A DNA stretch of 33,935 nt from Candidatus Micrarchaeota archaeon (GTDB lineage Archaea; Iainarchaeota; Iainarchaeia; Iainarchaeales; JAGVWC01). The translations under genes and the position numbers were made by a program. The notes under the pieces are model-generated. The model was not told where the DNA came from. It saw nothing but the letters and a program-made list of their open reading frames with translations, and made no database searches. The first letter of the stretch is position 1; each line of letters begins with the position of its first letter. Location of the stretch: contig JAZDJR010000036.1 in the NCBI GenBank assembly GCA_043803815.1, positions 1 to 33,935 of the forward strand, written 5' to 3'. Below, one piece after another: positions 2,904 to 8,428 of this stretch.

Positions 2904-5900
2904 ATGATTCGCATCAAAAAGCTGTCGCTTAAGAATTTCAAGTCTTTTCGGAAAGCCGATATTCCCTTATCCGACGGTTTTACCGCGATTGTCGGTTCCA
3001 ACGGTTCTGGCAAAAGCAATATTTTGGATTCGATTCTGTTTGTTTTGGGTATCAGCAGCTTAAAATCCCTGCGCGCGTCGCGGCTAACCGATTTGGTGAA
3101 CAACGACAGCCGCGAAGAATACGCCAAAGTCGAACTCGAATTGGAGGATGCGGTGCAGAACAAAAACTGGCTGATTAGCCGGACGGTGGATAAAAACGGG
3201 AAGTCGCAGGTGCGCTTGGATGAAAAAAAGGTGACGTTAAACGAGGTTACTTCGCTGCTGAACGAACTGGGCCTTGATGCGCAGGGCCACAATATCGTGG
3301 TTCAGGGCGATATCACGAGCATTGTTGAAATGAATGATACGGGCCGCCGCGAAATGATTGACGAAATCGCGGGCATCCGCGAGTTTGACGAAAAGCGCAC
3401 CGAAGCGTTTCGCGAACTGGAAAAAGTGGAGCAGCGAATCAAGGAAGTCCGGATTGTTTTGGCGGAACGAACCGCGTATCTTGAACAGCTGGCCAAGGAA
3501 CGCGAAGCCGCACTGCTGCATAATTCACTGTTGGAAGAAGTCAAGCAAACCAAAGCAACCCTATTGGCAGTCGAACTGGAAACAATCCAGAAAAAGCGCG
3601 AAAAAAACAAAGTCGACCGCGAAAAGCTGCAGGCCGATTTCGGGGTTAAGAACCGGAAAAAATCCGAAACTATCGCGGAACTGGACGAATTATCCGGTCA
3701 AATCGAAGCGCTGAATAAGGAATTGCTGGATTCGCGGGAAAAAACGTTTTCCGGTATCGGGCTTTTGGCGGAAGAAAAAAAATCGGAAAAAAAGGTCCGC
3801 GAGGAGCGGATGCTGTCCAAAAAAGAGCAGACTGAAAAAAACAACGGGCTTGAAAAACTGCTGGTGGATCGAAACGACCAAATTGACTCCGAACTGGTTG
3901 AAAAAAAAGAGCTGCTGAAAAAAGTGGGAATTGAACTGGATGAAATCGAAGGCCGGCTTTTGGAACTGCGGAAAAAACAATCCGAAATCAAAAGCGAATG
4001 GCAGTCCAAAAACAAGGAATTGTCGGAGTTCGAATCCGATTTGGAGCAAAAAGAAACGGCCTTGTCCGAACTGCAATCGCGGTTTTTTTCCGAACAGGCC
4101 AGCCAAAAAACGATTCAAAAAACCGTTGATTTAAAGCGCCAGTTCCAAAAAGAAGCCTTGCAGGAGCTTAACCGCATCAAAGACCGGCATTCGGGCCTGG
4201 AAGCCAAAAAAGAGACCTTGGAGTCGCTTTTATCCGGCCACCCAAGGCCAAGTGAACAAATCAAGCGGGTGCTGGACAGCCTTTCGGAGACGGAAAAGCA
4301 AATTTCGTACTGGGAAAGCACCAAGGACCACCTGCAAAAGCACATGGACGCCTTGGAAAAAGCCGCGGCCACTTGTCCGGTGTGCGAACAGTCCGTTTCA
4401 TTGGAAACCAAAAAAAACGCGGTTGGCCAAAAAAAAGCGGAGTTTAAAAAAGCGGTTTTGCAAATCGAATCGCTGAAGGAAAAAACCAAAAAATTGTTCG
4501 GCCAAAAAAGCGAACTGGAAAGCATCCAGAAAAAAGTGCAGGAATTGCAGGTTGAGCTGGGCGGATTTTCGGAATCGGTTTCGCGCATTTCGGATTTGGA
4601 ATCCAAAACAAGCGTATTGGAAAAAGAAATCTGCGAAATGGAAAAAAAACGGGATTCAATCGGCCTGGAGCGGCTGGAAGCCGAACTGCAAAAAAGCCGG
4701 GCCTTGTTTGATGAAACCGAGCAATCGGTCAGCGGTTTTAAAAAACAATTGGACGCGCGGACCTTGGCCGCGCTTTCCGAAGAAATCGAAGGGATTTCCA
4801 GAAAACTCAATGAAAAAAAAGGCTATCAAAAAGAGCTTGAATTGTCCGCGTCCATGCTGTTAAGCGAGGAAAAAAAGCAGAACATCGGCAGAATCAGGGT
4901 GCTGCAGGGCGAAAATCAGGCATTGGCCAACCAGCTTTTGGCCGAAGAAAAGGCGATTGCCGCGCTTGAAAAAGAATTGTCGCATTTGGAACTGGAACTG
5001 GCCAAAGCCGAAAAAGAATCTCGCGGGCTCGTTGAAAAAAAAGAGCGCGATTTGCAAAAACAAAGCGAACTAAAAGAGCGGGTTTTCAGGGAAGAGTATT
5101 CGCTTCGCAGCATTGAAAAAACCCAGAACGAACTGGCAATCGACGATTCCAAACACGAGGTCCGCGAAGCCGATTTGAAGGAAGAATCCGTTGTATTTGC
5201 AGGCGTCGTATTGCTGGAAAACCGTGACCTGCATTTGCTTCGCGAACGCATTTTTGAACTGGACAAAAAAATTTCCAAAATGGGCGCGATTAACCAAAAA
5301 GCGGTCATGGATTTTGGCGAGCACGAATTGGAAATGCTGGAAATCAAAAAAAAGAGCGACAAGCTCGAGGAAGAGCGCCTCGCCGTTTTGGATATGATTC
5401 AAAAAATCGAGGACAGGCGCACCGGAATTTTTATGGATTGCTTTAACGCGGTAAACCGGAATTTTAACCACGTTTTTTTTACTTTGGCGGAAGGACAGGG
5501 AAAATTGTCGCTTTCCAATCCTGAAAATCCGCTGGAAGCGGGGCTTTTGATTGAAGCGAGCCTGAAAAACAAGCCGATTTATTCCATGGATTCCATGAGC
5601 GGCGGGGAAAAAACCCTGACAGCTTTGGCGTTTTTGTTTGCGATTCAAATGTACAATCCAGCGCCGTTTTACGTGTTTGACGAAGCCGACGCGGCCTTGG
5701 ACAAGGAAAACTCGGTGCGGCTTGGAAAGATCATCCGCGAAATCAGCCAAAAAAGCCAGTTTATCGGAATCACGCACAACGACACGATTGTGCGCGAAGC
5801 AAACCAAATCATCGGAGTTGCCTTAAACGAACAAAAATCTTCGGTCATCGGATTAAAACTCAAAGCGCAGGCCGCGGACTCCGAATCGGAAGAGGGTTAA
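2904..5900 (+). CDS. smc: SMC-family ATPase with central CPVC zinc-hook-like motif and no evident hinge
   Basis: Walker A GSNGSGKSN, LRA loop, Q-loop IVVQGD, signature MSGGEK, Walker B/D-loop YVFDEADAALD, H-loop ITH, long coiled coils, and CPVC at residues 491-494. Confidence 0.9.
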   Translation: MIRIKKLSLKNFKSFRKADIPLSDGFTAIVGSNGSGKSNILDSILFVLGISSLKSLRASRLTDLVNNDSREEYAKVELELEDAVQNKNWLISRTVDKNGKSQVRLDEKKVTLNEVTSLLNELGLDAQGHNIVVQGDITSIVEMNDTGRREMIDEIAGIREFDEKRTEAFRELEKVEQRIKEVRIVLAERTAYLEQLAKEREAALLHNSLLEEVKQTKATLLAVELETIQKKREKNKVDREKLQADFGVKNRKKSETIAELDELSGQIEALNKELLDSREKTFSGIGLLAEEKKSEKKVREERMLSKKEQTEKNNGLEKLLVDRNDQIDSELVEKKELLKKVGIELDEIEGRLLELRKKQSEIKSEWQSKNKELSEFESDLEQKETALSELQSRFFSEQASQKTIQKTVDLKRQFQKEALQELNRIKDRHSGLEAKKETLESLLSGHPRPSEQIKRVLDSLSETEKQISYWESTKDHLQKHMDALEKAAATCPVCEQSVSLETKKNAVGQKKAEFKKAVLQIESLKEKTKKLFGQKSELESIQKKVQELQVELGGFSESVSRISDLESKTSVLEKEICEMEKKRDSIGLERLEAELQKSRALFDETEQSVSGFKKQLDARTLAALSEEIEGISRKLNEKKGYQKELELSASMLLSEEKKQNIGRIRVLQGENQALANQLLAEEKAIAALEKELSHLELELAKAEKESRGLVEKKERDLQKQSELKERVFREEYSLRSIEKTQNELAIDDSKHEVREADLKEESVVFAGVVLLENRDLHLLRERIFELDKKISKMGAINQKAVMDFGEHELEMLEIKKKSDKLEEERLAVLDMIQKIEDRRTGIFMDCFNAVNRNFNHVFFTLAEGQGKLSLSNPENPLEAGLLIEASLKNKPIYSMDSMSGGEKTLTALAFLFAIQMYNPAPFYVFDEADAALDKENSVRLGKIIREISQKSQFIGITHNDTIVREANQIIGVALNEQKSSVIGLKLKAQAADSESEEG

Positions 5901-5942: not shown

Positions 5943-8288
5943 TCAGCGGCTGACTTTTCCTTTCGGCCCGATTTTGACCAGCGGTTTTCGGGGCTCGTCG
6001 GAGTCCGAACTGGTTTTGGACGCGGATTTTTTTTGTTCGGGTTCGGGATTTTTTTTCGAGTCGATTTTTTTGGTTTCGGTTTTTTTGGCTTGTTCTTTTT
6101 TGGAATCGGTTTTTTTGGCATCCGTTTTGGAAGCGGGTGCGGCATTTCCGGGAAGTCCGGTCGCGGTTAGAGCGGGCAGTTTGGCGTCGATGTCGTGGAA
6201 TCGTTCCAATAATTCCGCGCGCTTGTTTTCGTAGTCCGCCATGGAAATTTTGTTTTCGATTAATTGCAGGTCGAGTTCGCGTCCTTCGTTGAGGAATTTT
6301 CGTCGGTTGGAGTGAAGCGACGATTCGATTGGAACCAAGTCTGTTTTTTTGTGTTTGAGCACTAAAAACGCGATGACGCCCCAGGATAAAACGATTAGAA
6401 GTATCGCGGCGATTAACAGTCCGTTTACGGGTTCGTTCACGGGAACAACTGTTCCGCCTTGACTGCCGTTGGGCACTCCAAACGGCGTTGCGGAAGTAAA
6501 TGGTTCTTTTGGATTTTCCCCGACTAATTCATACACTTTTTGCATTGTGGCAAACGAGCTTTCGGCTAAAAATACGATGGATACTCCGCTTTTGGCGGCT
6601 TCCAAGGCTTGGGCGGTCTGGTTTTTGTCATTAAAAAAAGCGACTTCCTGCTGGAAGTATCGGGCATGGTCCAGATATAATCGGCTCCAGGCAAACGGTT
6701 CGTTTGAAACGCCTAGTTTTTGTTCCAAATCGGAAATTTTTTGGTTAAGTGTGGCTTCCAAGGCTGGCAGGCCGCTGTCTTTGGTTTGTGTTTCGGAATT
6801 AATCAGGGCGGTAACCGAATCGGCATCCATGGCGGATGCCAAATCCCAGTTGAGCAGTTGGGACGCTTTGGCGCCGTCGTAGCGCCGCTGGATATCGTCT
6901 CGTTGGCTTGGGTCGATTAGCGGCAGGCGGTTTTCGGCTTCCACGATTTTTTGGTTTGAAAATTCGCGGGCGCTTGAATTAAGCTTGGTTTGCTTGGTTG
7001 CGCTTTGGAGCTGCATGGCCAAATCGGACGCTACTTCTTTCCAGGCAACGGCAAATTCGTAATTGCGCAGCCGGTCCAAGGGAATTGCATAAGCATCGGT
7101 CGGAGCTGTGTTTCCGGTGTCAACGACAATGGTTTGCGTGGTTAACAGGTCTTTGACATTGTTTTTGGCCCAAATCAGGCGCTGTTCGGCCGCGATTTGC
7201 CAGTCGATTTGGTCGGGCAAAACCCCTTGGCTTAATTGGACTTGCAATAAATCCAGTTCTTTTTGGAGTTCGACGAGTTTGGTGTGAAAAATCGTAGAGT
7301 TGTCGTTTAGAATCGACGGGTTTTGCGCGATGTCCCTAACCATTAAGGCGTTTACTTTGGCGGTAAACGAATAATTGGCGCTGGAATACAAAAAGTTCTG
7401 GTCAAGCAATGCTTTGGATTTTTCCAGCACTTGTTCGCTTTCGTTCAAGGAATCCAGCATGACTCCGACGAGCTGCTGGTCGGATAACAATGTTTTGTTG
7501 ACGCTGTCTTTGGCGTCTTTGACAAGGTCTTTGGCTTGCGTCCAATATCGCTGGGTAATCGGGTACAATGGCGCGGCTTGCGGGTCATACGCGATTGCTT
7601 GAGGAACAAAATCGAATTGGGTTTGCAGGATTTGTTCGTTAACATCAATTGACGCGGGGTCGGAAAATGCGAATTTAATCGCTTCATCAATGGTTTGGAC
7701 TTCCACCACTTTCATGCTCCAGTTTTTGGGGGCATATTCCACCAGATTGACGGATTCCACGCCTTTGTCGGTCCTTACGATTTGCTTTGATTCGCCTTTT
7801 GGAATAATGAATAATTTGATTCCGATTTTGGACGCTTCTTTTGCTTTTTCAAATACTCCGCCGACGGTTCCCACCTGGCCCGCTTCGTCAATGGTTCCGG
7901 TCATTCCGACAAAATCGGGAAGGGGGCGGTTTTGTAGCATGGTAATTGTAAGCAAAGAAGTGGCCGCGCCTGCACTGGGTCCGTCCACAATGGAAGCGGT
8001 TGAATTGATTTCGAATTTGTAATCGAACTTGTTGACTTCGGAGGAATAATTCTTGGCGAGCTCGACGGCCACGCGTTCGGCGTTTTGGGTGCTGGTGCCG
8101 ACCAAGGGGTTTACGCTGGAAAAAATTTTGCCTGTTCCCGAAACCAGTTCCAAGGAAAGCGTTGCGCTTAATCCTTGGCCGTCATCCGTAATCGCAAAAA
8201 TATGAATCGAATCTTTGGAAGTGACTGCTAAAACCGAAACGGATACCGTTAAAACGGCCAAAAAAAGCAAAAACAAGCGGTTTTTCAT
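5943..8288 (-). CDS. Membrane-anchored archaeal serine protease with Lon-type (S16) proteolytic domain
   Basis: Signal peptide; VDGPSAGAA (catalytic Ser) and VGGVFEK (catalytic Lys); no AAA domain; helical body, C-terminal TM helix and Lys-rich tail. ATG at 8288. Confidence 0.85.
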   Translation of the reverse strand: MKNRLFLLFLAVLTVSVSVLAVTSKDSIHIFAITDDGQGLSATLSLELVSGTGKIFSSVNPLVGTSTQNAERVAVELAKNYSSEVNKFDYKFEINSTASIVDGPSAGAATSLLTITMLQNRPLPDFVGMTGTIDEAGQVGTVGGVFEKAKEASKIGIKLFIIPKGESKQIVRTDKGVESVNLVEYAPKNWSMKVVEVQTIDEAIKFAFSDPASIDVNEQILQTQFDFVPQAIAYDPQAAPLYPITQRYWTQAKDLVKDAKDSVNKTLLSDQQLVGVMLDSLNESEQVLEKSKALLDQNFLYSSANYSFTAKVNALMVRDIAQNPSILNDNSTIFHTKLVELQKELDLLQVQLSQGVLPDQIDWQIAAEQRLIWAKNNVKDLLTTQTIVVDTGNTAPTDAYAIPLDRLRNYEFAVAWKEVASDLAMQLQSATKQTKLNSSAREFSNQKIVEAENRLPLIDPSQRDDIQRRYDGAKASQLLNWDLASAMDADSVTALINSETQTKDSGLPALEATLNQKISDLEQKLGVSNEPFAWSRLYLDHARYFQQEVAFFNDKNQTAQALEAAKSGVSIVFLAESSFATMQKVYELVGENPKEPFTSATPFGVPNGSQGGTVVPVNEPVNGLLIAAILLIVLSWGVIAFLVLKHKKTDLVPIESSLHSNRRKFLNEGRELDLQLIENKISMADYENKRAELLERFHDIDAKLPALTATGLPGNAAPASKTDAKKTDSKKEQAKKTETKKIDSKKNPEPEQKKSASKTSSDSDEPRKPLVKIGPKGKVSR

Positions 8289-8428
8289 GTTCAAAGATTA
8301 CGCCCTAAAAGGTTTTTAATCATTGGTAAACGATTTGGAAAAAATCGGCTGTTGAAAAATTGAATGATAAAAAAGTATTTGGCAAAATAAGGAAAAAAAG
8401 TGAAGAATTCGGATAAAAAAAAATAATT

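What the first reader, a model, noticed from the sequence alone, without database searches (positions are those of the whole stretch)
2904..5900. Condensin-type SMC head joined by a Rad50-like zinc hook instead of a hinge
Seen: the head motifs are those of canonical Smc rather than Rad50 (NFKSF, GSNGSGKSNILD, LRA, IVVQGDI, IDEIAGI..FD, MGAIN, MSGGEK, PAPFYVFDEADAALD). The middle of the protein is continuous coiled coil with a single CPVC at residues 491-494 of 998 (nt 4374-4385), the fold-back point. I see no Gly-rich globular hinge. Established: prokaryotic Smc (~1150-1200 aa) dimerises through a ~150-aa hinge, whereas Rad50/SbcC uses a central CxxC zinc hook; the length deficit here roughly equals one hinge. 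Inference: this is a chimeric 'hook-SMC', possibly a different condensin ring architecture in a small-genome archaeon. No mre11, scpA or scpB is adjacent. Hinge-less archaeal SMC-related proteins (ClsN, Sph) are known, so novelty depends on the head grouping with true Smc.
Basis: partly seen in the sequence, partly recalled or inferred. Interest (0 to 1): 0.9.

Follow-up and report, generated by a model that had tools for sequence, protein, structure and literature searches.

The report
Natural zinc-hook Smc without hinge
This small archaeon's chromosome-organising Smc protein has lost the usual hinge that joins its two copies and carries a Rad50-type zinc hook there instead, a swap previously made only by engineering.

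Summary
Window 2904-5900 (+) encodes a 998-aa protein with a canonical Smc ATPase head, two arms of about 320-330 aa and one CPVC at residues 491-494. No hinge domain is detected.

The head is Smc-type. It scores 521 bits with SMC_prok_A, at most 98 bits with Rad50 models and 84 bits with ASRP. Against solved structures, Pyrococcus Smc scores 7e-92 and Rad50 scores 5e-16.

The genome (85.6% complete) encodes ScpA and ScpB elsewhere. No hinge-bearing Smc was found in it.

The feature belongs to a lineage. All 49 relatives' Smc genes that I inspected from 19 families of the same order carry one central CxxC (48 are CPxC). The flanking arm is only 16-34% identical. Sister orders keep 1007-1171-aa hinge-bearing Smc.

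A profile of 30 hook regions finds the P. furiosus Rad50 zinc-hook structure first in the PDB (E 5.8e-10).

My reading is an orthologous Smc-ScpAB condensin that dimerises through an inter-chain Zn(Cys)4 hook. This is the natural counterpart of the engineered B. subtilis Smc(Zh). Zinc binding and dimerisation are inferred, not shown. The dimer prediction gave no verdict.

I found no published report in the searched library. I rate it a new variant of a known kind, of high interest to SMC researchers.

The parts
2904..5900 (+). The smc gene: 998 aa, with a hook where canonical Smc has a hinge.
   Evidence: ORF and translation. SMC_N covers residues 4-979. SMC_prok_A scores 521 bits.
2904..3398 (+). 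N-terminal half of the Smc ATPase head (about aa 1-165). It holds Walker A GSNGSGKS (aa 31-38, nt 2994-3017), R57 and the Q-loop residue Q134.
   Evidence: This part aligns to the Pyrococcus Smc head 5xei, residues 3-250. K37, R57 and Q134 are invariant in the 95 rows of A1. The domain boundary is my estimate from the model.
3375..4361 (+). Ascending arm helix (aa 158-486).
   Evidence: DSSP on the AF2 model gives H158-445 and H449-486. The region aligns to SMC_prok_A profile positions up to 497.
4314..4415 (+). Rad50_zn_hook-like stretch (aa 471-504).
   Evidence: Pfam PF04423 scores 14-17.9 bits here, below its 24.3-bit cut-off. This stretch is nevertheless the best PF04423 match in the whole genome. 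The family profile A2 matches the Pf Rad50 hook 1l8d at E 5.8e-10.
4374..4385 (+). CPVC (aa 491-494), the proposed zinc ligands at the apex of the arm.
   Evidence: It is the only CxxC in the protein. C, P and C are invariant in 30 of 30 regions, and a central CxxC is present in 49 of 49 genomes. It lies in the loop 487-499 between the two arm helices.
4401..5393 (+). Descending arm helix (about aa 500-830).
   Evidence: The AF2 model shows helices from 500 onward, with breaks at 552-554, 586-587, 616-617, 703-709 and 766-775. The region aligns to SMC_prok_B profile positions 685 onward. The end of the arm is my estimate.
5394..5861 (+). C-terminal half of the Smc head. It holds the signature SGGEK (aa 899-903, nt 5598-5612), Walker B FYVFDE (aa 922-927, nt 5667-5684), the D-loop residue D929 and the H-loop residue H958.
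   Evidence: This part aligns to 5xei residues 279-511. S899, G900, G901, E902, K903, D926, E927, D929 and H958 are invariant in A1.

Best explanation
The gene is the organism's single chromosomal Smc, orthologous to the Smc of Smc-ScpAB condensin. In an ancestor of most of this Iainarchaeota/Diapherotrites order, the hinge domain of about 170 aa was replaced by a short Rad50-type zinc hook with the consensus ..L.K..A.CP[VTI]C[DE]S.L...KK..L.

Each chain folds back on itself at the hook, so that its N- and C-terminal halves form one Smc ABC head at the far end of an antiparallel coiled coil about 320-330 aa long. Two chains are then held together permanently at the apex by one Zn2+ bound to four cysteines, two from each chain. 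This is how Rad50 dimerises.

ATP-dependent head engagement, and bridging of the heads by the kleisin ScpA with ScpB, would close the ring as in canonical Smc-ScpAB. The complex would then organise and segregate the chromosome.

Shown here:
- the domain architecture;
- the Smc identity of the head;
- intact ATPase motifs;
- absence of a detectable hinge;
- conservation and apical position of CPxC;
- sequence likeness to Rad50 hooks;
- presence of scpA and scpB in the genome;
- tightly conserved arm lengths.

Inferred:
- zinc binding;
- hook-mediated homodimerisation;
- ScpAB binding;
- the chromosomal function.
For: **Head identity.** TIGR02169 SMC_prok_A scores E 4.6e-156 and 521 bits. Protein residues 4-488 align to profile positions 2-497. 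TIGR02168 aligns residues 501-977 to profile positions 685-1171. The protein therefore matches both halves of the Smc profile, and only the hinge part is missing. Rad50 models score at most 98 bits, ASRP 84.5, arcadin-4 63 and RecN 59. Among solved structures the Pyrococcus Smc head 5xei scores 7.2e-92, and the best Rad50 scores 5e-16. Foldseek with the full model gives condensin Smc4 at 4.5e-38 and the Smc head 5xei at 3.7e-29. Rad50 first appears at rank 14.

**ATPase residues.** K37, R57, Q134, S899-K903, D926, E927, D929 and H958 are invariant in 95 homologues.

**No hinge.** None is found in the protein or in the 85.6%-complete genome.

**Partners.** ScpA (267 aa, PF02616, 56.7 bits) and ScpB (194 aa, PF04079, 112.6 bits) are encoded on other contigs. 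ScpA is found in 194 of 215 genomes of the phylum and in 58 of 58 high-quality ones.

**Hook conservation.**
- 110 of the 120 best database homologues carry one CPxC.
- 30 of 30 plus 19 of 19 genome loci from 19 families of the order carry a central CxxC.
- Across the roughly 600-aa arm of A1, only C491, P492 and C494 are invariant. Those rows were chosen for having the motif.
- In the unselected set A2, L484, C491, P492 and C494 are invariant although identity is 16-34%.

**Likeness to Rad50 hooks.** The A2 profile finds the Pf Rad50 Zn hook 1l8d at 5.8e-10 and 6zff at 1.7e-9. The next hit is keratin at 0.0045. PF04423 matches 29 of 30 hook regions at E<=1, with a best value of 8.2e-7. The hook-only model (pLDDT 90.6) is a helical hairpin, and its top two Foldseek hits are the chains of 1l8d.

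**Arm length.** The distance from Walker A to CxxC is 456-460 aa in 90 of 96 sequences. The distance from CxxC to SGGE is 405-408 aa in 88 of 96.

**Phylogeny.** 48 hook proteins plus 3 f4 proteins form a clade with 100% SH-aLRT support. This clade lies inside the phylum's Smc, with hinge-bearing Smc of sister orders outside it.

**Distribution of the hinge.** It is found in 17 of 19 genomes of the sister orders but in only 2 of 196 genomes of the window's order.

**Functional precedent.** A B. subtilis Smc whose hinge was replaced by the Pf Rad50 zinc hook supported normal growth on rich medium (PMC5344682, passages read).
Against: No experiment or confident model shows zinc binding or dimerisation.

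The window's own hook scores below Pfam's Rad50_zn_hook cut-off: 14-17.9 bits against 24.3.

The Foldseek match of the hook model to 1l8d ranks first but is not significant. Its E-value is 0.073, and 0 of 635 hits reach E<=0.001. Helical hairpins are a generic shape.

The protein falls below the curated equivalog cut-offs for Smc: 521 against 729 bits, and 398 against 567 bits.

Relatives in family f4 have neither a hinge nor any central Cys. A dimerisation module at the apex is therefore evidently not indispensable in this lineage, which weakens the argument that the hook must be the dimeriser.

The genome is incomplete (85.6%), so a second Smc that bears a hinge cannot be strictly excluded.

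ScpA and ScpB are not adjacent to smc, and their binding to it was not tested.
Confidence: 0.75

Rival explanations
1. The CPxC hook does not make the constitutive Smc homodimer. Instead it works in trans. It might tether two Smc-ScpAB complexes, as Rad50 hooks can bridge Mre11-Rad50 complexes. Or it might pair with the CxxC hook of the Rad50 in the same cell to form a mixed Smc-Rad50 assembly.
For: Hook-bearing Rad50 coexists with hook-Smc in the lineage. A Rad50 of the P0140 type is found in 60 of 61 sampled genomes of the phylum. All 12 inspected Rad50 loci carry a central CP[LVT]C, including loci from the hook-Smc families f10 and f11. The two hooks share the CPxC..L core.
Against: The window's own genome has no hook-bearing Rad50. 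Its Mre11 partner is a 572-aa Rad50-like protein without CxxC, and P0140 finds nothing in G000 at E<=1e-25. Yet the Smc hook is kept there.

The residue after CxxC is D or E in 45 of 49 Smc hooks. In the phylum's Rad50 hooks it is K or R in 7 of 12 and D or E in 1 of 12. The phylum's Rad50 hooks score only 24.9-43.5 bits with the Smc-hook profile. Both results fit diverged hooks that may be kept separate.

Without a hinge, an Smc needs some constitutive dimer contact, and the hook is the only conserved candidate.
Confidence: 0.08
2. The CPxC is a structural, redox or regulatory motif in the turn of the hairpin and does not dimerise the protein. The two Smc chains are held together only by arm-arm packing, ATP-engaged heads and ScpA.
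For: Family f4 of the same order has Smc of 928-935 aa with a plain coiled-coil apex, no Cys and no hinge. It still keeps ScpA in 9 of 9 genomes. Marine hinge-less SMCs without CXXC have been reported (PMC12153180, passages read).
Against: Two cysteines per chain cannot complete a tetrahedral zinc site alone. The motif, its spacing and its flanks match the inter-chain Rad50 hook. Invariance of C, P and C across 49 genomes, with flanks only 16-34% identical, points to strong selection. The engineered Smc(Zh) shows that such a hook can carry the dimerising role (PMC5344682).
Confidence: 0.1
3. The protein is not the chromosomal condensin. It would instead be a Rad50/SbcC, ASRP/ClsN-type or defence-type (Wadjet/Lamassu-like) SMC relative.
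For: It has a central CxxC and no hinge, as do Rad50 and ASRP. NCBI records name most homologues only 'AAA family ATPase'.
Against: Rad50 models score at most 98 bits and ASRP 84.5 bits, against 521 bits for SMC_prok_A. Real Rad50s retrieved by the hook profile show the reverse pattern, with Rad50 models at 168-297 bits and SMC_prok_A at 115 bits or less.

Relatives encode a separate Rad50. No other Smc is found in the genome. ScpA and ScpB are present. The gene sits among housekeeping genes, close to ribosomal proteins L10 and L1, with no nuclease or defence partner beside it. It is orthologous to hinge-bearing Smc in the tree.
Confidence: 0.03

Closest known systems
Canonical prokaryotic Smc of Smc-ScpAB (for example Pyrococcus and B. 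subtilis Smc; NCBIfam TIGR02169/TIGR02168)
   Same: The head has the same sequence type and fold. All ATPase motifs are intact. The arms are full length and align to the Smc profile up to the hinge junctions. ScpA and ScpB are present in the genome. The protein is orthologous in the tree.
   Different: The hinge domain of about 170 aa is missing, and a loop of about 13 aa containing CPVC takes its place. The scores fall below the curated cut-offs.
Engineered B. subtilis Smc(Zh), in which the Smc hinge was replaced by the P. furiosus Rad50 zinc hook (Burmann et al. 2017, PMC5344682), together with the reciprocal hook-to-hinge swaps in Rad50 (Tatebe et al. 2020, PMC6969161)
   Same: The architecture is the same: Smc head, Smc arms and a Rad50-type CxxC hook. 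The engineered protein supported growth, and its function still depended on arm length (passages read). The natural family likewise keeps its arm lengths within about 2-4 aa.
   Different: The protein here is natural, old enough to span 19 families of one order, and archaeal. Its hook flanks form a sequence family of their own, with D or E after CxxC. None of the passages I read in those papers mentions a natural example.
Rad50/SbcC zinc hook (Pfam PF04423; structures 1L8D and 6ZFF)
   Same: There is a CPxC at the apex of an antiparallel coiled coil with similar flanks. The profile match to 1l8d has E 5.8e-10, and 29 of 30 family members hit PF04423.
   Different: The head is Smc-type and not Rad50-type. 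There is no adjacent mre11. The arms are longer than in the Rad50s of the same phylum, whose open frames are 787-815 aa in the 12 loci I inspected, some with upstream read-through.
Archaea-specific SMC-related proteins (ASRP: ClsN/coalescin, Sph1/2; PMC9389158)
   Same: They are archaeal members of the SMC superfamily with a zinc hook where canonical Smc has a hinge (passages read).
   Different: ASRPs are a separate and much shorter family (the model has 593 positions). The window's protein scores only 84.5 bits against a cut-off of 300 and has a true Smc head.
'Hinge-less' SMC of marine Actinomycetes-like bacteria (Sussfeld et al. 2025, PMC12153180)
   Same: They are SMC-clade proteins that have lost the hinge.
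   Different: The authors state that those proteins lack the CXXC motif (passage read). They resemble the Cys-less f4 variant seen here and not the window's hook form.

Membership tests
Prokaryotic Smc (condensin Smc-ScpAB) | Smc-type bipartite ABC ATPase head with Walker A, Q-loop, signature motif, Walker B, D-loop and H-loop | tested here: met
   SMC_prok_A scores 521 bits across both halves. The 5xei Smc head scores 7.2e-92. The catalytic residues are invariant.
Prokaryotic Smc (condensin Smc-ScpAB) | Long antiparallel intramolecular coiled-coil arm of canonical length | tested here: met
   The AF2 model shows helices 158-486 and from 500 to about 830. The protein aligns to the Smc profile right up to the hinge junctions. 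The arm length of about 320-330 aa is my estimate.
Prokaryotic Smc (condensin Smc-ScpAB) | Central SMC hinge dimerisation domain (PF06470) | tested here: not met
   There is no hinge hit in the protein or in the genome. The hinge block of relatives aligns to a gap.
Prokaryotic Smc (condensin Smc-ScpAB) | Score above the curated equivalog cut-off (TIGR02169 729.4 bits; TIGR02168 567.35 bits) | tested here: not met
   The scores are 521.4 and 398 bits. The shortfall corresponds to the unmatched hinge part of the profile.
Prokaryotic Smc (condensin Smc-ScpAB) | Kleisin ScpA and kite ScpB partners | tested here: inconclusive
   Both genes are present in the genome. ScpA is found in 58 of 58 high-quality genomes of the phylum. 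Physical binding was not tested.
Prokaryotic Smc (condensin Smc-ScpAB) | Orthology: descent from hinge-bearing Smc, and the only Smc in the genome | tested here: met
   In the tree the hook clade lies within the phylum's Smc, with hinge-bearing Smc of sister orders outside it. The only other SMC_N-like hits in the genome are a Rad50-like protein, an ABC-F protein and a 260-aa frame. The genome is 85.6% complete.
Rad50/SbcC | Rad50-type head | tested here: not met
   Rad50 models score at most 98.4 bits against cut-offs of 700-1087. Genuine Rad50s show the reverse score pattern.
Rad50/SbcC | CxxC zinc hook at the apex of the coiled coil | tested here: inconclusive
   The motif, its position and its flanks match. 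The window's own PF04423 score is below the cut-off: 14-17.9 bits against 24.3. Zinc binding cannot be tested with these tools.
Rad50/SbcC | Operon partner Mre11/SbcD | tested here: not met
   The neighbours are a membrane protein and a protein containing Lon_C. The genome's Mre11-like gene sits beside a different, 572-aa ATPase on contig C29.
ASRP (ClsN/Sph) | Match to NF045487 above its cut-off, and the short architecture of about 600 aa | tested here: not met
   The score is 84.5 bits against a cut-off of 300, and it covers only coiled-coil residues 292-646. The protein is 998 aa.

The most novel reading that the evidence does not exclude
An entire order of DPANN archaea (Iainarchaeota/Diapherotrites) runs its chromosome on Smc-ScpAB complexes that are closed at the apex by a zinc hook and not by a hinge. 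Nature would then have carried out the Smc(Zh) experiment. That would show the hinge, including its proposed DNA-binding and gate roles, to be dispensable for the core SMC mechanism, while arm length stays under tight constraint.

The hook was probably captured from a DPANN-type Rad50. It now coexists in the same cells with a hook-bearing Rad50, which implies two zinc hooks that do not cross-pair.

The same order also holds intermediate and alternative end states: degenerate hinge remnants in f9 and f2, and an apex with neither hinge nor Cys in f4. Together they form a natural series for asking what an SMC apex must do.
Probability: 0.55. Interest if true: 0.85.

Novelty: new variant of a known kind. 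Interest (0 to 1): 0.78.

Why it matters
What the SMC hinge does beyond dimerisation is a long-standing question. Proposed roles include DNA binding, acting as a DNA entry gate, and contacting the heads. The main evidence that the hinge fold is dispensable comes from one engineered B. subtilis chimera.

A natural, ancient and widespread hook-Smc would give independent evolutionary evidence on this point. It keeps ScpA and ScpB and holds its arm lengths within a few residues. It would also provide a small protein family for structural and single-molecule work.

The finding raises a new problem. Two zinc-hook proteins, Smc and Rad50, share one cytoplasm, so something must prevent them from cross-pairing.

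There is a practical point too. These genes fall below the Smc equivalog cut-offs, and many are named only 'AAA family ATPase' in public records. Surveys that are seeded on hinge domains would probably miss them or file them under Rad50. This is my inference from the methods passage of PMC5344682 read.

Tried and rejected
**Dimer prediction.** I ran complex prediction on two copies of residues 426-560 (alignment A1) with one Zn riding along. The score was 0.12 against a mark of 0.42, and the controls were not run. This is no verdict. It counts neither for nor against binding.

**Fold search with the hook-only model.** The 1l8d chains rank first and second, but at E 0.073. I treat this only as weak corroboration.

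**Donor of the hook.** I tested whether the phylum's own Rad50 is the closest hook. It is not. Those Rad50 hooks score 24.9-43.5 bits with the Smc-hook profile; 11 of 12 were reported, and one fell below the reporting threshold. Short Rad50s of Micrarchaeota type score 57-68 bits. Capture from a resident Rad50 is therefore not supported. Capture from an older or DPANN-type Rad50, or convergence, remains open.

**The genome's own Rad50-like protein as a query.** The 572-aa protein found matches in only 4 of 91 sampled genomes at E<=1e-8, so it was a poor probe. P0140 then found Rad50 in 60 of 61.

**Tree.** The long-branch rows (f2, f9, the f8 hook protein of G023, and f33 with a hinge) cluster together, and the tool gave an explicit long-branch warning. 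I draw no conclusion about the order of hinge decay, or about one origin of the hook against two. I left out of the tree L044, L049 and L050 (partial or duplicate pieces of G038 and G027), L046 and L048 (partial G155), and L059 (a 1781-aa frame of G213).

**Arm-length count.** Only 96 of 170 distinct sequences matched all three regular expressions. The other 74 were not counted.

**Distribution outside the phylum.** I could not survey it systematically. Named hook-Smc records are Diapherotrites. One cluster at 90% identity also holds two short contigs labelled Micrarchaeota.

**Literature.** Five searches and passages read in eight papers turned up no report of a natural canonical Smc with a zinc hook. 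Table S4 of PMC5344682, which lists natural SMC arm lengths, could bear on this, and I could not see it.

Full report
**The object.** The window holds one long ORF at 2904-5900 on the + strand, 998 aa. It has a single CxxC, CPVC, at residues 491-494 (nt 4374-4385), and only four cysteines in all. Pfam places SMC_N across residues 4-979 (E 3.9e-53) and finds no SMC_hinge. The only hit in the middle is a sub-threshold Rad50_zn_hook match at residues 471-504, with 14 bits against a cut-off of 24.3.

**Which family the head belongs to.** NCBIfam settles this.
- SMC_prok_A (TIGR02169) scores 521 bits, with protein residues 4-488 on profile positions 2-497.
- SMC_prok_B (TIGR02168) scores 398 bits, with residues 501-977 on profile positions 685-1171.

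Both halves of a canonical Smc are therefore present, and only the hinge part of the profile has no counterpart. The best Rad50 model scores 98 bits, ASRP (ClsN/Sph) 84.5, arcadin-4 63 and RecN 59. Against solved structures the best match is the Pyrococcus Smc head 5xei at 7.2e-92, while Rad50 heads reach only 5e-16. A full-length AlphaFold2 model (95-row alignment, mean pLDDT 78.8) matches condensin Smc4 (4.5e-38) and the 5xei Smc head (3.7e-29) best, and Rad50 first appears at rank 14. The catalytic residues are invariant in 95 homologues: K37, R57, Q134, S899-K903, D926, E927, D929 and H958. Because the hinge is missing, the protein falls below both curated Smc cut-offs. That may be why many public records call its homologues only 'AAA family ATPase'.

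**The apex.** In the model a continuous helix runs from 158 to 486, a loop at 487-499 holds CPVC, and a helix resumes at 500. A separate model of the 114-aa apex region is a confident helical hairpin (30-row alignment, pLDDT 90.6, pTM 0.75) with CPVC in the turn. I aligned the protein with hinge-bearing Smc from sister orders, which are 1133-1171 aa (two f33 proteins are 1007 and 1058 aa). Their hinge block of about 170 aa faces a gap in the hook proteins, and CPxC sits exactly at the junction. From the model I estimate arms of about 320-330 aa, close to a canonical Smc arm. For comparison, B. subtilis Smc has 344 aa according to PMC5344682.

**Conservation.**
- Of the 120 best database homologues, none has a precomputed hinge domain. 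110 carry one CPxC; in 109 it is central, and in one it is displaced by an intein. Ten proteins of about 920-939 aa have none.
- In whole genomes of the phylum (215 species genomes), the protein has a match at E<=1e-30 in 199 of 215, and in 56 of 58 high-quality genomes.
- I inspected the Smc genes of 49 genomes from 19 families of the window's order. These were the 30 best loci and 19 more chosen to cover further families, not counting family f4 and the f2 and f9 variants described below. All 49 have one central CxxC: 48 are CPxC and one is CLVC.
- In the 30 unselected apex regions, identity to the window's is only 16-34%. Yet the Leu seven residues before the first Cys, together with C, P and C, is invariant. 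A Leu and a Lys after the motif are conserved in at least 90%.
- The distances from Walker A to the hook (456-460 aa in 90 of 96 sequences) and from the hook to the signature motif (405-408 aa in 88 of 96) are held within a few residues. Only 96 of 170 distinct sequences matched all three patterns.

**Likeness to Rad50 hooks beyond CxxC.** A profile of the 30 apex regions, searched against all PDB sequences, finds the P. furiosus Rad50 zinc-hook fragments first: 1l8d at 5.8e-10 and 6zff at 1.7e-9. The next hit is keratin at 0.0045, which shows the coiled-coil background. The printed alignment pairs the family consensus around CPVC with the Rad50 hook and its flanks. Pfam's Rad50_zn_hook matches 29 of 30 apex regions at E<=1, with a best value of 8.2e-7. 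The window's own region scores 16.6 bits. By fold, the two 1l8d chains rank first and second for the apex model, but at a non-significant E of 0.073.

I also searched the profile against 1.84 billion representative proteins. It gave 625 hits at E<=1e-3. The best 150 fall into two groups. One is hook-Smcs of about 985-1030 aa. The other, in the length classes I sampled, is Rad50-type by NCBIfam: nine of the nine such proteins scanned, including three that carry inteins. The best-scoring Rad50s carry Micrarchaeota names. The phylum's own Rad50 hooks score lower, at 24.9-43.5 bits. Whether the hook was captured from a Rad50 or arose by convergence is therefore open. I lean towards capture from a DPANN-type Rad50, but I cannot name a donor.

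**Genomic setting and partners.** The genome is 1.08 Mb in 36 contigs, 85.6% complete with 1.3% contamination. A six-frame search finds no SMC hinge in it. It does find ScpA on contig C24 and ScpB on C4, both above the Pfam cut-offs. The only other SMC_N-like loci are a Rad50-like gene, an ABC-F protein and a short frame. The smc gene lies between a membrane protein and a protein containing Lon_C, close to ribosomal proteins L10 and L1. That is a housekeeping neighbourhood with no nuclease or defence partner. Across the phylum ScpA is found in 194 of 215 genomes and in 58 of 58 high-quality ones.

**Where the swap happened.** The hinge domain is found in 19 of 215 genomes. It is present in 17 of the 19 genomes of the sister orders, but in only 2 of the 196 genomes of the window's order. 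One of those two, G134, has 260 contigs and 3% contamination, and it also carries a hook-type Smc. In a maximum-likelihood tree of 61 Smc proteins, 48 hook proteins and the three f4 proteins form one clade with 100% SH-aLRT support, and the hinge-bearing Smc of families f34, f35 and f37 lie outside it. Four long-branch lineages cluster together under an explicit long-branch warning: f2, f9, the f8 hook protein and f33 with a hinge. I do not interpret their position.

The same order holds other end states:
- Family f4 Smc (928-935 aa) has a plain coiled-coil apex with no Cys.
- Family f9 (1082-1084 aa) and family f2 (934-1003 aa) keep short central stretches that are not coiled coil. These align to parts of the hinge but are not detected by Pfam.

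**Mechanism.** The best-supported reading is a hook-dimerised Smc-ScpAB. Two chains are joined at the apex by one zinc ion bound to four cysteines, as in Rad50. That chemistry is established for 1L8D; I recall it, and the paper is cited in PMC9764264. Head engagement and ScpAB would close the other end. The architecture, the head identity, the conservation, the presence of the partner genes and the arm-length constraint are shown here. Zinc binding, dimerisation, ScpAB binding and the chromosomal role are inferred. The single dimer prediction I could run gave no verdict.

The strongest outside support is experimental. A B. subtilis Smc with its hinge replaced by the P. furiosus Rad50 hook supported normal growth on rich medium, and it remained sensitive to arm length (PMC5344682, passages read). 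The reverse swap works in yeast Rad50 (PMC6969161, seen in the search listing and in passages read; also PMC7752040).

The main caution comes from family f4. It does without both a hinge and cysteines, so an apical dimeriser may not be strictly required in this lineage.

**A consequence worth testing.** Hook-bearing Rad50 is widespread in the phylum. It is found in 60 of 61 sampled genomes, and all 12 inspected loci carry a central CP[LVT]C. Many cells therefore hold two hook proteins. The residue after CxxC is acidic in 45 of 49 Smc hooks. In the phylum's Rad50 hooks it is K or R in 7 of 12 and D or E in only 1 of 12. This is a possible specificity determinant. It is untested and the sample is small. 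The window's own genome is an exception. Its Mre11-like gene is paired with a 572-aa Rad50-like ATPase that has no CxxC and a hydrophobic stretch in the middle.

**Novelty.** Five full-text searches and passages from eight papers gave no report of a natural canonical Smc with a zinc hook. The nearest items are:
- the engineered Smc(Zh);
- ASRP/ClsN, a different and shorter family with a hook (PMC9389158);
- marine hinge-less SMCs that explicitly lack CXXC (PMC12153180).

The library lacks many journals, supplements are closed, and the scan's own earlier notes were unavailable. 'Not in print' is therefore provisional. I rate the finding a new variant of a known kind. It is real, conserved and of high interest to researchers who work on SMC mechanism.

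Noticed in passing
own genome contig C29, locus L003:118-1833(-) and L003:1845-2927(-): An Mre11/SbcD-like gene (361 aa) sits beside a 572-aa Rad50-like ATPase. The ATPase matches only the head-proximal parts of Rad50 profiles. It has no CxxC, and it has a hydrophobic, transmembrane-like stretch where the distal coiled coil and hook would be. In contrast, 60 of 61 sampled relatives have a Rad50 of the P0140 type, and all 12 loci inspected carry a CxxC hook (open frames 787-815 aa).
   Followed up: partly
relatives: L056 (G019), L057 (G016), L079 (G011), family f4: These Smc orthologues of 928-935 aa have neither a hinge nor any central cysteine. The apex is plain coiled coil. They form the sister group of the hook clade in the tree, with 84% support. 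ScpA is present in 9 of 9 f4 genomes. How these proteins dimerise is unexplained.
   Followed up: partly
relatives: L047 (G027, f9, 1082 aa), L043 (G006) and L045 (G001) (f2, 934 and 1003 aa): These Smc orthologues have short central stretches that are not coiled coil. The stretches align to fragments of the hinge but are not detected by Pfam, and they look like degenerate hinge remnants. They sit on long branches, so their placement in the tree is unsafe.
   Followed up: partly
relatives: L084-L095 (Rad50 loci) compared with the Smc loci L013-L042 and L060-L078: Hook-Rad50 and hook-Smc coexist in genomes of families f10 and f11. The residue after CxxC is D or E in 45 of 49 Smc hooks. In Rad50 hooks it is K or R in 7 of 12 and D or E in 1 of 12. 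This could keep the two hooks from cross-pairing.
   Followed up: partly
relatives: P0082 (1538 aa); the Smc frames of G084, G105, G111 and G177 (1541-1576 aa); Rad50s P0127, P0128 and P0228: Several relatives appear to carry an intein near the Walker A P-loop of Smc, because their matches begin at query residue 36-37. P0082 carries Pfam intein and homing-endonuclease domains. Some short Rad50s also show intein-type hits in their N-terminal part. The window's gene has no intein.
   Followed up: no
window 5943-8294 (-): This 783-aa ORF converges on smc. Its only Pfam hit is a Lon_C proteolytic domain near the N-terminus (residues 82-179). The remaining 600 or so residues have no family assignment.
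   Followed up: no
G134 (contig C241) and G155 (contigs C31 and C40), same order as the window: These are the only two genomes of the order with a Pfam hinge hit. G134 also has a hook-type Smc on another contig, is fragmented into 260 contigs and has 3% contamination, so its hinge may be foreign. G155 (family f19) appears to have a genuine hinge-bearing Smc with short arms.
   Followed up: no
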